A DNA stretch of 64,000 nt from Octopus vulgaris. Taxonomy: Eukaryota. Shown in pieces: positions 19,065 to 43,779 of this stretch (positions are counted from its first letter, which is position 1; every line of letters begins with the position of its first letter). Location: assembly GCA_951406725.2 (NCBI GenBank), contig OX597819.1:21142001-21206000 (forward strand), read 5' to 3'. Made by a program: the position numbers and the translations under genes. The notes under the pieces are model-generated. The model ran no database searches. It saw only the letters and a list, made by a program, of their open reading frames with translations, and was not told the DNA's origin.

Positions 19065-20841
19065 ATGAATCTCTAAATACTGGTGATGTAAAAATTCCAT
19101 GTGGCATTTTCCAGGGTGACTAATTATCACCACTCCTCTTTTGTTTAGCCTTAATACCTCTCTCAAAATTGCTCAATGACGCATAGTACGGTTATAAAAT
19201 ATTTGCTAAAAATATAAATCATCTCATTTGCAAAAAATGACCAACAACTACAGGGCTTAATAGCGATTGTTAAACAATTCAGTGATGATATCAGAATGCA
19301 ATTTGGCTTCGATAAATGTGCAAAAGCTACTTTTATCAAAGGAAAAATGACAGAAACATCTAACGTCAACCTTGACCTGCAGAATGTCGTAAAAGAGTTA
19401 GATCCAGCGGAGAGCTACAAGTACCAAGGGGTAATTGAAGGGGACGGAATAAGGCATTCAGTGATGAAGGAAAGGATCAGGAGAGAATGTTATCGCAGAG
19501 TAAGAGCAATACTCAAGACAGAGCTGAATGCGAGAAACAGGATCGAAGCGATCAATGCTTTAGCCATACCAGTCGTGACTTACAGTTTCAATATCGTTAA
19601 CTGGTCAATTACTGAAATATGTAATCTTGACAGAAAAATACAAAAACTGTTGACAATGCATAGAATGCACCACACTAAGGCAGATTTATCTGCCAAGAAA
19701 AGAGGGAGGCCGTGGACTTTTACAACTGGCAATAACAATGAAGATTGCTACAATTGGCCTAGACACCTACCTGAAAAACTCTGAGGACTGGATGTTAAAC
19801 TTGTCTCAAAACATGAAAACAAGAAAGCATCATACTCAGTAATAAAACAGACAATGGAATATCTAAATGAATTCCGAATACAACAAATTTCGGAATTAGA
19901 CATACAAGAAACAAGCACAGAAAAAGCTAAGCGCATGAAAATCCGTGCTAAAACTGCTGCCTTAGATATTCTGATCGATAAATGGCATGAAAAACCTCTC
20001 AATGGTAAATACCCAAAGAGAGCAAATAATGCCGATGTTGACAAAGCCCTGACCCATCAATGACTAATGACCTCTGGCTTAAAATCTGAAACAGAAGGGT
20101 TTATCATAGCAACTCATGATCAATGCCTACCAACAAGGAACTACCAGGCCAATATATTAAAGAATGGCAGTAGCCCAACATGTCGTGTATGTTTACAACA
20201 AAATGAAACCATTGATCATGCTGTCTTCAAGTGCAGTTTTCTTGCGCCTACAGAGTATCTCAACAGGCATGATAGAGCTGCACAATATATTCACTGGGTA
20301 ATTTTCAAAAGCCTCGACTTGCCCCATGATAAAATCTGGTGGGAATACAAACCACCTCCAGTGCTTGAAAATGATCGCATCTCACTCCTCTGGAACTTCA
20401 CCATTCAAAGTAACAGAAAGATACATGAGAATAGGCTAGATATCATATTGAAAGACGTTAGACAAAAAACATACCTCCTCATTGATATGACTGTCCCAAT
20501 ACCTGTTGTCATAGGTGCCCTGGGAATGATACCAAATGGGGCTGACTGCTACCTAACTCAGATACCAGGAAACCCCAAAATGGCAGAAATTCAAAAGATA
20601 GTACTCATACGAACTGCTCATATCCTACGCAAAATACTTTCTATGTAATCTCAAGTTTTAAAACAAACATAATTTTCTTATGATTTTTTAGACATTCACT
20701 AGTACAACACTAAGTACAAAACCAAATATATGGCACTCTAGGCATAACAATAACATGAACTTCCAACTTGTCGTCTCTTGAGGCTTCTGGGTGAAACTTG
20801 GAGCCAACTTGTACAAATGTAAAGCGAAAGTCAAACATAAA
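19065..20841 (+). mobile_element. 5'-truncated R4/Dong-clade RLE non-LTR retrotransposon (RT C-half, CCHC finger, restriction-like endonuclease), pseudogenised
   Basis: GIFQGD*LSPLLFCLALIPLS (RT motif), FSDDIRMQFGFDKCAK, KREGGRG-like segment, CRVCLQQNETIDHAVFKC, RHDRAA, NRLDII and PVVIGALG..IQKIVLIRTAHILRKILSM*. (AAT)n flanks at 19009-19058 and 20842-20863. Confidence 0.93.
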
Positions 20842-33817: not shown

Positions 33818-34150
33818 AAAATAATAGTTATCGCCATACTAATATGGCATTCTTATAAAAATAAGAATAAAGCTGTCCGCTTATTAGCTCCATGAGGCCA
33901 TCGCCTTAAGTTAGCTATTTGATACACAAACTGTATCCATATAACCTTGGAACAAGGGAGGTTAGTCGCTCCACACTACTTGACCGGCAGCTACAGACGC
34001 GTTTCGGGGTATTGCCCCTTTTCAATGCAGCGTAGCCAGCGTTTCGGGGTATTTTTATAAGAATGCCATATTAGTATGGCGATAACTATTATTTTCCGGG
34101 AACGCTGCCTCTGTTCTCTTTTAGAGAGACTTAGTAATTTTAATATTTCT
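33818..34150. mobile_element. Penelope-type pseudo-LTR repeat with inverted junction
   Basis: 33818-34039 is the reverse complement of 42292-42513. 34050-34150 is a forward copy of 42468-42570. Arms 33818-33862 and 34050-34095 are inverted repeats. Confidence 0.85.
33990..34031 (-). ncRNA. Minimal type-I hammerhead ribozyme motif (U3-A8 core)
   Basis: Reverse complement reads GCUGCA UUGAAAA GGGG-CAAUA-CCCC GAAA CGCGUC UGUAGC, identical to 42300-42341. Confidence 0.7.
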
Positions 34151-40265: not shown

Positions 40266-41149
40266 ATGTTAGGGTGGTGTGATGGTTGATGAAGGTAAAA
40301 CCAGTTGTTGCTCTAATAAGTAATATCCATCTGCTGCTGTAATATTTGCTGTTGTTCTTGAACAAACGTCGTTGATGCTTTAATGGATTTCTAGTCGAGG
40401 TATGGTTTTCAGTTTAGTGAGTTCGCAGCACAAACTCATGGTTACGTATAAAGTCCCATTGCGCGAAGAATAGTTTATATATGAATGTGGTGGGAGGGAA
40501 TCAATGCAAAAACCCGTGTTATTTGCATACTCAGACATACAGAGAGATACACACAAAGCATTTTATTTTTCCCTTTTGCGAGATCTTAATCTTATTTGCA
40601 AAGACAAAACGAAGTAACTACTTTTGGCTGCATCATGGGAGGCAGAAACAATTTCTAGATCCTGCAGTGCTAAACACTATGTCTATATTATATATTTACA
40701 TAAGCGCAACTATTTACGTACATCCTTACGTACATGCATACATACATACATATATATGCCATCATAGATCGTCAGTCGAAATTGCGAGGATGAACTGGTT
40801 CTTGACTGAAGATTAAAGGCTTCGACTGACCCGTCCGTGTTTTTTGTATCGTCTTCTGGATGTTTTGTGTTCTTGTCCCATTTTGTATATATATATATAT
40901 ATGCATGAGTGGCTTTGCAAAATTAGAGAATGAACTTTTCAAGGGTTTCTGTAATTGTTATAAAAAATGTTTTCTCTCCTTGTTTCTCTCATTGTTTTCT
41001 GTGTCCCTTTCTATAGAAGAGCGTAGGCTCGAAACGTAAAAGACTTTTCCTATTCCTAGGCGTTATACTAATACATCTGTTTGTTTTGCACACTACTTGT
41101 CTTTGTCTTTTGTTGCTTTTTTCGGAAACTCTCCCTATACATATATATA

Positions 41150-41635
41150 ATTCAAAGAGTGTTAGAGGTTGTGAATCCAACCAACTTAGGAATAGTATTT
41201 ATCCAATATACTGCTGGTAGAATACCTAATTAATACACAAGTGTTGGTTATTGCGTGGCAATTACCCTACTAAGTATAATTAGGCGAGGGTAATAAATGG
41301 TTTTATCCTTAATTTATATGGCAAGAAGAAAATGGAGGGAATCCAGAGGTAGTATTCATCAGGTGTTAGACATTATACTATGTCTATTTATTTATTTTAA
41401 ACAGTTCAGATAATATATAAATACATGTGTAAAGTATTAATAGTTTCTAGAATAGAGAAAGAAGAGCATATTCTTACAGCTGTTTCAGCCAAGAGGTCGC
41501 AGTACCCCACATGTTATTTCCATCCTTTCAGTGTACTGTAGTAATGTGTAGATAAAATTTGGGTACTTGGGTGTGCCTCTAGGGTTCGTCAGAGAATTTT
41601 ATAAGATCGTCCAAGTAGTTCCATAGGGATAATTT
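41150..41635 (-). mobile_element. Possible ancient Penelope-like RT N-terminal remnant
   Basis: Minus-strand PKYPNFIYTL..TCGVLRPLG resembles the PLE P.P.FY.LPK.HK...LRPIV region. Confidence 0.3.
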
Positions 41636-41977
41636 ATATATATATATATATATATGCATGTATATATATATATATATGAAGGGGTTTCTATGATTGTGTA
41701 TAGAGGGATATATTATTCAAAGGAATTCCAACTCTGCTTTCTATGTTTTATTTATATTCTTTATAATATTAATGTAGAATATAGAATATATAGTATAAAT
41801 AATATATATATAATAGTTATCGCCATACTAATATGGCATTCTTATAAAAATAAGAAAAAGCTGTCCGCTTATTAGCTCCATGAGGCCATCGCCTTAAGTT
41901 AGCTATTTGATACACAAACTGTATCCATATAACCTTCGAACAAGGGAGGTCAGTCGCTCCACACTACTTGACCGGCA

Positions 41978-42019
41978 GCTACAGACGCGTTTCGGGGTAT
42001 TGCCCCTTTTCAATGCAGC
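41978..42019 (-). ncRNA. Minimal type-I hammerhead ribozyme motif (U3-A8 core)
   Basis: Exact reverse complement of 42300-42341. Confidence 0.7.
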
Positions 42020-42299
42020 GTAGGTTATATGGATACAGTTTGTGTATCAAATAGCTAACTTAAGGCGATGGCCTCATGGAGCTAATAAGCGGACAGCTTT
42101 ATTCTTATTTTTATAAGAATGCCATATTAGTATGGCGATAACTATTATTTTCGGAAACGCTGCCGTTGTTCTCTTTTAGAGAGACTTAGTAATTTTAATA
42201 TTTCTATTATTGAAAACAAGTGGATGTATTCCACCGAAGCTAGGTAAATAAAACCTTCGAACAGAGATTGTCAGAAGCGACACCTACTGGTCTGGCTAC

Positions 42300-42341
42300 G
42301 CTGCATTGAAAAGGGGCAATACCCCGAAACGCGTCTGTAGC
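42300..42341 (+). ncRNA. Minimal type-I hammerhead ribozyme motif (U3-A8 core)
   Basis: Stem I GCUGCA/UGUAGC (one G.U), core UUGAAAA, stem II GGGG-CAAUA-CCCC, GAAA, palindromic ACGCGU and GUC cleavage triplet (cut predicted after 42335). Confidence 0.72.
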
Positions 42342-43329
42342 TGCCGGTCAAGTAGTGTGGAGCGACTGACCTCCCTTGTTCGAAGGTTATATGGATACAG
42401 TTTGTGTATCAAATAGCTAACTTAAGGCGATGGCCTCATGGAGCTAATAAGCGGACAGCTTTATTCTTATTTTTATAAGAATGCCATATTAGTATGGCGA
42501 TAACTATTATTTTCCGGAAACGCTGCCGTTGTTATCTTTTAGAGAGACTTAGTAATTTTAATATTTCTATAATATATATATAGTAAAATGAAATGAAGTA
42601 TCGATTGTCTTATTGAATAAATGAAATGTTGAATATAAAATATTAGGGGACTAGTATACTTTCATGCGTTATAGCAGTCTTCGAGGTCCCAGGTTGTGAC
42701 AGGAGTGTTTCAACTGTGTTTGACTGACTGTCTATTGTCATTTACATATATATGTACGACGAACGTCTTTCAATTTTCGTCTACCAATTTCGTTCACAAG
42801 GCTTTGATCTGCTTGAAGTTATAGTAGAAGACACTTGCTCAAGATGACATGCACTGAAACTGAACCCAGAACCATGTGATTGGGAAGCAAGCCTCTTACC
42901 ACAAAGCCACAACACCTTTAACTGGATACATATCTATTAATTTATCTGGCCAACAATTTATACACAATATACGTAGCTTTCTTTACAACCATCTAAGTAG
43001 CTCCATTTACATGTGTCCGTCTACCTACAGATATATCTGTCTGTCATCTGTCTGCATATTAATCAGTTAAGGATATACATTATATATTTATTGTCTGTAT
43101 CAATTATAAAGTTGGATGCTACCATATTTAGTGCAACTGCTAACCGGATGTTGATTACATGTCAGGTGGCAGTCAGACGTGACTAGCACGAACAATAATA
43201 ACGAGAATAGATTTAAAGTTATTGGCATCCACTTTTGAAATATGGACATAATTTTAAGACGTCACATCTAATCAGTATGTTGTTAAAAGGCATAAATAAT
43301 ATAATTAATAATAATAAAATAATAATAAC

Positions 43330-43382
<53 letters not shown>

Positions 43383-43779
43383 TAAGCAGCAACAACAACA
43401 AAGAAAAAGCATTAATCTCACATAAGCACAGAGTCTGAAAGTTCTCTTCTTTGCCTCAGGGTATCTAGAAGTGTATATATATATATATATATATATATAT
43501 CCAAATAGATGCCTCCGCAGTTATGAGATACGCTTTGAAACCATGTGGTAACAAGTTCAATCTCACTGTGCGGTACCTAAGCAACGTGCCTTCTTCCATA
43601 GCCCCAGGTCGACCAATGGCTTGGGGATGAATTTCAGAAGCGGACACTGTGTAAGCCCAATGTTTACACACATATATGTGTGTGTGTTTGTGTGTTTGTG
43701 TGCGAATGTGTTTGTGTGTATTTGTGTATGTTTGTACGTATGTATATATACATACAGATAACCGTAAACAATACCTACC

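What the first reader, a model, noticed from the sequence alone, without database searches (positions are those of the whole stretch)
41810..42570. Young ORF-less inverted and tandem repeat array carrying ribozymes on both strands (retrozyme or PLE-pLTR-like system)
Seen: the layout is a reversed arm with the hammerhead (41810-42022), a forward 3' part (42022-42208) and a forward full unit (about 42210-42570). Copies are nearly identical, set in TA-rich sequence, with no intact ORF. Established: PLE insertions often show inverted 5'-truncated pLTRs and partial tandems, and retrozymes are non-autonomous hammerhead elements with circular RNA intermediates. Inference: this is a recently mobile non-autonomous ribozyme retroelement. 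A transcript from either strand would contain a hammerhead and fold into more than 100 bp of dsRNA, a potential substrate for ADAR editing or small-RNA production.
Basis: partly seen in the sequence, partly recalled or inferred. Interest (0 to 1): 0.75.

Follow-up and report, generated by a model that had tools for sequence, protein, structure and literature searches.

The report
Octopus retrozyme inserted by Penelope machinery
This is one of several hundred young copies of a 363-base, protein-free mobile repeat that carries a hammerhead (self-cutting RNA) motif and is likely pasted into TA repeats by Penelope-type jumping-gene enzymes; it is a known kind of element, but its mirror-image insertions follow a strict rule that hints at how those enzymes copy RNA.

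Summary
The layout is real: reverse arm 41810-42023, forward part-unit 42022-42210, full unit 42211-42570, with a type I hammerhead (U3-A8 variant) on each strand and no ORF. The 30-nt core occurs 892 times in this genome. In 63 loci the element is a pure 363-nt tandem whose 3' ends sit in (TA)n; two older ORF-less subfamilies exist, and no parent element with an ORF was found. It is a new member of the animal non-LTR retrozymes with the full Penelope-like (PLE) insertion signature. Added here: 42 of 63 insertions are head-to-head pairs; in 36 of 37 scorable pairs one arm ends at each of two fixed sites 60 nt apart (61 of 62 with the subfamilies), and the two arms share a haplotype (288 of 290 SNP calls, 65% by chance). 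Simple fold-back and L1-type twin priming do not fit. Best model: a PLE complex primes both target strands on one RNA template, possibly a circle. Cleavage, circles and the helper are untested. Both hammerheads are predicted buried in a 214-bp duplex if the whole locus is transcribed; no genomic A-to-G bias. The scan noted related elements before, here and in other genomes.

The parts
41802..41809 (.). left (TA)n target remnant
   Evidence: sequence
41810..42023 (-). inverted 5'-truncated arm, unit positions u86-u300, ending at site A (no tail)
41984..42013 (-). type I hammerhead core of the inverted arm (stem I proximal part kept, 5' arm of the long rod lost)
   Evidence: motif scan; sequence
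42022..42023 (.). head-to-head junction, 2-nt microhomology
   Evidence: junction overlaps in 42 loci
42022..42210 (+). 5'-truncated forward unit u174-u363 (no hammerhead); truncation lies at the base of the rod hairpin, a hot spot
42211..42570 (+). full forward unit u1-u360, ending at site B (with tail)
42248..42392 (+). about 55-bp imperfect rod that extends hammerhead stem I
   Evidence: fold z -6.2; pair counts on 49 copies of three subfamilies
42306..42335 (+). type I hammerhead core, U3-A8 variant, 4-bp stem II, 2-bp stem III with palindromic loop; predicted cut after 42335
42511..42570 (+). 60-nt optional 'tail' between priming sites A (u300) and B (u360)
   Evidence: 3'-end classes in 63 loci
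42571..42582 (.). right (TA)n target remnant
   Evidence: sequence
33818..34150 (.). second insertion of the same family in the window: reverse arm ending at site A (33818-34039, with hammerhead), short filler, forward arm ending at site B

Best explanation
The locus is one insertion of a 363-nt, ORF-less, hammerhead-bearing tandem element (a non-LTR retrozyme) present at hundreds of sites, which is likely copied into (TA)n tracts by the reverse transcriptase and GIY-YIG nuclease of an autonomous Penelope-like element. Shown: copy number, pure tandem make-up, (TA)n at 3' ends, two fixed 3' ends 60 nt apart, head-to-head pairs with one end of each kind, a shared haplotype in both arms, short microhomology at the junction, and compensatory changes in the hammerhead and rod across three subfamilies. 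Inferred: a read-through transcript is bound by a PLE complex that nicks both target strands; one nick primes at site A and the other at site B of the same template; each cDNA stops early (often at the base of the rod) and the two are joined by 2-6 nt of microhomology, which gives the tail on one side only. Inferred with less weight (about 0.55): the template is a hammerhead-cut, circularised monomer read round more than once, which regenerates tandems. The helper family is not identified; the two-ORF Neptune-type family 'a' is the best candidate.
For: 892 exact cores, control 0. 63 of the 64 loci behind the first 100 listed cores: all family sequence is tandem unit; 49 have an arm over one unit, 13 over two. 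(TA)n within 16 nt of 84 of 98 regular 3' ends against 5.6% of random flank positions. 98 of 108 arm ends fall at A or B (49 each). 42 of 63 loci are head-to-head; 36 are A+B, 1 B+B, 0 A+A, 5 have a broken end (p 3e-10); sister subfamily 11 A+B of 13 two-armed, old subfamily 14 of 14. Same-locus arms match at 288 of 290 common-SNP calls in 39 loci, permuted mean 65%, maximum 79% of 2000. Mismatch per site: same arm 0.56%, other arm 0.83%, other loci 2.3%. 10 of 34 clean A+B loci cannot be fold-back copies of either arm; L1-type abutting arms 4 of 34, chance 5.6. Loop-3 palindrome kept in three different versions, stem I/II double changes; 92% of cells paired, slid controls 30-42%. Autonomous family 'a' (RVT_1 + GIY-YIG) has the same signature with its own 35-nt tail, and A+B in 2 of 2 two-ended loci. 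In vitro, a PLE protein nicks and extends both strands and starts at two internal sites that bound the tail (PMC11167929).
Against: No sequence link to any autonomous family: the ends of families 'a' and 'c' score at or below shuffles, and the tail is 60 nt against 35 nt in family 'a'. The A+B rule and shared haplotype could also arise from two RNAs of one dominant source locus, or in part from gene conversion between arms; neither was excluded. Tandems can come from read-through of long source arrays without any circle; in the PLE studied in vitro the hammerhead was not needed for insertion (PMC11167929). 5' ends are only weakly enriched near the cut site (9 of 108, expected 3.6, window chosen after looking). 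Rfam does not recognise the motif. The pair-count control (a) is not a probability and only three lineages contribute most changes. Loci were chosen for an exact core, which favours longer insertions.
Confidence: 0.82

Rival explanations
1. The copies are just the broken-off terminal repeats (pLTRs) of an autonomous Penelope-like element whose coding part I did not find.
For: Tail, inversion, partial tandems and (TA)n targeting are all pLTR traits (PMC8557442; PMC3846280). One locus (L129) has the unit directly behind a PLE endonuclease region in the same direction, two more (L069, L138) are fused to family 'c'. Only 150 of 6136 GIY-YIG candidates were scored.
Against: Every long copy continues into another unit, not into an ORF 3' end (63 loci). 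In 206 fetched stretches of the three subfamilies (some overlapping) 15 had a PLE protein hit and none shows the unit as the repeated end of an ORF; the three fusions cut the unit and the PLE at different mid-points. 60 of 119 tail ends followed by an unusual base share no non-unit downstream sequence apart from one local duplicate pair and a TA-rich pair. Three successive subfamilies (76-81% alike) are all ORF-less ~360-nt units.
Confidence: 0.08
2. The element is PLE-mobilised, but the second arm is made by the first cDNA folding back on itself (self-priming), and tandems come from read-through of source arrays; the hammerhead is a passenger.
For: Self-priming was proposed for PLE inversions (PMC3846280). 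Fold-back explains the shared haplotype, and 24 of 34 clean loci, and the window locus, have arm lengths that allow it. The hammerhead is dispensable for insertion in vitro (PMC11167929).
Against: 10 of 34 loci have arms that each hold sequence absent from the other. Fold-back would need to run B-to-A in 11 loci and A-to-B in 13, and gives no reason for stopping exactly at the other site. Hammerhead and rod pairs are kept by double changes across subfamilies.
Confidence: 0.15
3. A minisatellite-like repeat spread by DNA recombination, or an assembly artefact at inverted repeats.
For: Tandem units within an arm are more alike than arms (0.64% against 0.83% in 29 loci), which fits some local conversion. 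The window's own junction was not bridged in the listed contigs.
Against: Dispersed over many chromosomes with fixed 3' ends, variable 5' ends and (TA)n targets; the A+B rule; head-to-head joints at other positions in independent short-read contigs.
Confidence: 0.02

Closest known systems
Metazoan non-LTR retrozymes (Cervera and de la Pena 2020, PMC7229834; mussel repeats of 350-390 bp)
   Same: Non-coding tandem unit of 170-400 nt, type I hammerhead in each unit, low GC, strongly self-paired monomer (z -6.1 as a circle), co-occurrence with autonomous PLEs.
   Different: U3-A8 core; here the insertion anatomy is resolved and is PLE-type (two fixed ends, head-to-head arms, (TA)n target). The word 'inverted' does not occur in that paper's main text. 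Cleavage and circRNA, shown for mussel, are untested here.
Animal retrozymes as non-autonomous PLE derivatives (Li, Clavereau, Pollet 2026, 10.64898/2026.07.22.740005)
   Same: Same conclusion: retrozymes depend on PLEs.
   Different: Their evidence is co-occurrence and sequence kinship with pLTRs in Xenopus; here there is no sequence kinship to a pLTR but there is an insertion signature. They state that the mechanism remains to be elucidated and that they mainly covered vertebrates.
EN+ PLE insertions with inverted pLTR and tail (Craig et al. 2021, PMC8557442; Arkhipova et al. 2013, PMC3846280)
   Same: 5' truncation, partial tandems, adjacent inverted 5'-truncated copy, tail often at one end only, (TA)n bias, microhomology junctions.
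   Different: No ORF; tail 60 nt rather than 30-40; the one-end rule is counted here (61 of 62) and linked to a shared template haplotype.
Poseidon PAc in vitro system (Frangieh et al. 2024, PMC11167929)
   Same: Two internal start sites bound the tail; both strands are nicked and extended; AT-rich target; predicted dimer.
   Different: They saw no difference in start site between strands and did not address pairing within one event; their start sites are not homologous to the target, whereas both sites here end in a TA-like motif that could pair with the nicked (TA)n.
U3-A8 minimal hammerheads of Schistosoma PLEs (Cervera and de la Pena 2014, PMC4209133)
   Same: Natural U3-A8 covariation, palindromic loop 3 for dimer folding; circular template proposed for tandem PLEs.
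   Different: Canonical-size stems I and II here, plus a long rod extension.

Membership tests
Metazoan non-LTR retrozyme | Tandem repeat unit of about 170-400 nt, many dispersed copies | tested here: met
   363-nt unit, 892 cores, arrays to 5.5 units
Metazoan non-LTR retrozyme | Type I hammerhead in each unit | tested here: met
   motif, fold and pair counts; Rfam gave no hit
Metazoan non-LTR retrozyme | No protein-coding frame | tested here: met
   longest stop-free frame 54 aa in the locus and in a tandem
Metazoan non-LTR retrozyme | Two consecutive hammerhead units (the 'active' criterion of Li et al. 2026) | tested here: inconclusive
   not met at this locus (one forward core); met by the family, 13 of 63 loci have an arm over two units
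Metazoan non-LTR retrozyme | Self-cleavage of the transcript | not testable with these tools
   needs in vitro transcription; only 1 of 9 predicted Xenopus dimers cleaved in Li et al. 2026
Metazoan non-LTR retrozyme | Accumulation as circular RNA | not testable with these tools
   no run on record as RNA and only contigs; the tandem junction exists in DNA, so junction reads cannot show a circle
Metazoan non-LTR retrozyme | No primer-binding site or polypurine tract; TSD longer than 4 bp when present | not tested
   TSDs cannot be read inside (TA)n; PBS/PPT not searched (no tRNA gene in 41000-43500)
Autonomous EN+ Penelope-like element (terminus of one) | Linked ORF with RT and GIY-YIG nuclease flanked by this repeat | tested here: not met
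   the search was a sample, not exhaustive
PLE-type insertion | Optional tail at one end only | tested here: met
   61 of 62 scorable pairs A+B
PLE-type insertion | Adjacent inverted 5'-truncated copy and partial tandems | tested here: met
   42 of 63 loci head-to-head; 49 of 63 with an arm over one unit
PLE-type insertion | (TA)n or AT-rich target | tested here: met
   84 of 98 3' ends against 5.6% background

The most novel reading that the evidence does not exclude
A single PLE complex holds one retrozyme RNA, probably a hammerhead-made circle, and primes the two target strands at two fixed sites 60 nt apart, one site per strand, copying the same molecule twice. That one geometry would produce the PLE tail, the head-to-head inversion and the tandems, and would make this family genomic evidence that animal retrozyme circles are PLE substrates, carried by a lineage that has outlived its link to any parent element.
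Probability: 0.4. Interest if true: 0.65.

Novelty: new member of a known kind. Interest (0 to 1): 0.4.

Why it matters
The element itself is of a described class. Its value is as a clean, high-copy readout of two open questions: which enzymes move animal retrozymes, and how PLEs make their tail and inverted ends. The counts give a sharp prediction for the existing in vitro PLE assay (one start site per strand, both from one template). Hundreds of young loci with long inverted arms are also potential dsRNA sources in an animal known (from my own knowledge) for heavy A-to-I editing, though nothing here shows that they are edited.

Tried and rejected
Rfam: no hit in the window or at E<=5 in 41700-42700. 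Parent search: GIY-YIG search scored 150 of 6136 candidates; 30 loci plus 40 wider stretches were read; none carries the unit as its end. A loose end in RNA-like contigs looked like a partner sharing the 3' end; it was an older subfamily of the same unit. L081 (unit head-to-head with family 'a') was considered as a chimeric single event; the 162-nt spacer is an older repeat, so it is undecided. Family 'c' as helper: three fusions, but its 30 sampled copies have a single end and no inverted arm within 1.5 kb and it shares the (TA)n target, so later insertion with deletion is as likely. Apparent likeness of the unit's 3' part to family 'c' vanished against shuffles. Expression: no RNA holder listed; contigs of four runs guessed to be RNA cover the unit but count neither for nor against. 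ADAR fossils: no strand-biased A-to-G excess; the one divergent locus, L131, has 9 A>G and 9 T>C and is another subfamily. A paper search for C3U/G8A activity gave one uninformative passage; that the U3-A8 pair keeps activity is recalled, not from a call. Look-up of earlier findings by sequence was blank. No structure or complex prediction was run.

Full report
Observation. Taking window 42211-42573 as the unit (u1-u363), the locus reads: short (TA)n, reverse arm u300 to u86 (41810-42023), 2-nt overlap, forward u174-u363, forward u1-u360, short (TA)n. The reverse arm differs from the full unit by one deleted base, the part-unit by one substitution and one indel. No frame exceeds 54 aa. A second insertion of the family lies at 33818-34150. 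The host looks like an octopus from its 2.8-Gb size and repeat make-up; that is my inference, no call named it.

The ribozyme. Each strand has a type I hammerhead core with a 6-bp stem I, 4-bp stem II, 2-bp stem III and a GUC site. Positions 3 and 8 are U and A instead of C and G, a natural covariation reported in Schistosoma PLEs (PMC4209133, parts 1-2 of 4 read). Rfam did not detect it. Stem I continues as a rod (fold z -6.2). On 49 copies of three subfamilies (41 distinct), 92% of cells of my structure are paired against 30-42% for slid controls, 9 of 52 pairs change on both sides, and the loop-3 palindrome is kept in three different forms. That suggests selection on a dimer-type hammerhead, with the caveat that the changes come from few lineages and the structure was derived from one member. 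If the whole locus is transcribed, all 30 core bases of either hammerhead are predicted to pair in a duplex of about 214 bp, so this locus is a better dsRNA source than a ribozyme source; co-transcriptional folding was not modelled.

Copy number and make-up. The unit search gave 113 matches from 40 scored of 1454 candidates, full-length ones at 96-100%. The exact 30-nt core occurs 892 times, reversed control 0; at 99 cores per 63 loci that is roughly 570 loci (estimate). I fetched 63 of the 64 loci behind the first 100 listed cores (all 39 on contig C1, 24 of 25 on C2; plus three earlier loci). All family sequence in them is tandem unit; median insertion 680 nt, 49 with an arm over one unit, 13 over two. 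One locus runs off its fetched stretch. Two older subfamilies, 81% and about 76% alike, have the same ORF-less ~360-nt architecture. Contigs matching the stretch are also in runs labelled as three other organisms.

Insertion signature. Of 108 arms, 49 end at u292-306 (site A), 49 at u350-u3 (site B), 10 elsewhere; both sites end in the same short TA-like motif. (TA)n follows 84 of 98 regular ends, background 5.6%; only 6 of 20 one-armed 5' ends are in (TA)n. 42 of 63 loci are head-to-head, with junction overlaps mostly 2-6 nt. This is the PLE pattern of tail, inverted 5'-truncated copy, partial tandem and microsatellite bias (PMC8557442, passages and section 15; PMC3846280, passages).

The rule. 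Among the 42, 36 have one A and one B end, 1 is B+B, none A+A, 5 have a broken end. In the sister subfamily 11 of 13 two-armed loci are A+B and 2 unscorable; in the old one 14 of 14 (these loci were chosen by best match or by one motif, and three duplicate views were dropped). Pooled 61 of 62. In 39 loci with two arms of 60 nt or more, the arms agree at 288 of 290 calls on 14 common SNPs, against 65% for permuted pairs. So both arms are copied from the same template haplotype. Arms are not abutting pieces of one pass as in L1 twin priming (4 of 34, chance 5.6), and in 10 of 34 neither arm can be a fold-back copy of the other. 5' ends cluster at the rod base (16 of 108, expected 4.2) and weakly near the cut site (9, expected 3.6); both windows were chosen after looking. 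Against my reading: 24 of 34 loci are compatible with fold-back, two RNAs from one dominant source would also share a haplotype, and conversion between arms was not excluded.

Mechanism. Frangieh et al. (PMC11167929, parts 1-2 of 4 read) showed that a PLE protein nicks and extends both strands and starts at two internal sites that bound the tail, with a predicted dimer, and that the hammerhead is not needed for insertion in vitro. The simplest fit to my counts is one complex that uses site A for one strand and site B for the other on one template. PLE RT is thought to lack RNase H (recalled), which would let the RNA be read twice. A circular monomer as template was proposed in PMC4209133 and circles are shown for mussel retrozymes (PMC7229834, passages and section 14); here it would explain how a lineage that is 5'-truncated at each step keeps making arrays of five units, but read-through of long source arrays would too. 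I put the circle step at about 0.55.

Helper. The genome holds a young Neptune-type family 'a' with an upstream 479-aa ORF and a 781-aa RT-zinc finger-GIY-YIG frame (the clade label rests on the linker motif described in PMC8557442, no tree was built). It inserts in (TA)n, has a U3-A8 hammerhead, a 35-nt optional tail, and A+B ends in 2 of 2 two-ended loci, but no sequence likeness to the unit. Family 'c' (3105 exact cores) is fused to the unit, or a relative is, at 3 of 63 loci but shows one end type and no inverted arm in 30 of 30 copies. No ORF with this unit as its repeat was found in 206 fetched stretches or 70 PLE stretches; this was a sample.

What is in print. Animal retrozymes and their PLE dependence are described (PMC7229834; 10.64898/2026.07.22.740005, parts 1-3 of 5 read; its supplements were not seen and could list related families, though its sampled invertebrates were insects and a coral). 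I found no paper on an octopus retrozyme or on one-site-per-strand priming in eight searches; an O. vulgaris repeat annotation has no 'hammerhead' or 'ribozyme' in its main text (PMC13282606, passages; supplements not opened). Repbase and Dfam could not be searched. PMC7151607: one passage, not used. Earlier notes of this scan (read after my counts) describe related octopus elements and a long-plus-short pairing in a shark-type genome; they are unchecked leads.

Verdict. Real, young, ordinary in kind: a new member of the non-LTR retrozymes that works like a non-autonomous PLE. Interest 0.4, for the counted rule and its direct test.

Noticed in passing
L093:581-4281 (also L082-L097): Young Neptune-type PLE with a separate 479-aa upstream ORF (no Pfam hit above cut-off) overlapping the start of the 781-aa RT-EN frame; 16 of 150 listed GIY-YIG hits lie in a 781-aa open frame. 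Canonical PLEs are described as single-ORF.
   Followed up: partly
L073:4699-7020; L281-L310: Abundant PLE family 'c' (3105 exact hammerhead cores) that has a single 3' end and no inverted arm in 30 of 30 copies, unlike typical PLEs; a natural contrast for the tail mechanism.
   Followed up: partly
L069:3906, L138:1787, L129:2353: Retrozyme pieces fused without a TA spacer to the endonuclease region of family 'c' or a relative; template switch or later insertion with deletion, undecided.
   Followed up: partly
window 41010-41135: Remnant of an older relative of the family 'c' terminal repeat with a degenerate hammerhead motif, ending in TA, 700 nt from the finding.
   Followed up: no
L131:1901-2501: A fourth, intermediate subfamily (about 84% to the unit) that keeps the identical hammerhead core.
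   Followed up: partly
L081:2441-2602: Spacer between a retrozyme arm and a family 'a' fragment belongs to another older repeat (1337 candidates, about 90% alike), some with nearby partial or inverted second matches.
   Followed up: partly
window 19218-20648: Two open frames whose translations resemble pieces of a non-LTR retrotransposon RT and C-terminal region (resemblance recalled, not scanned).
   Followed up: no
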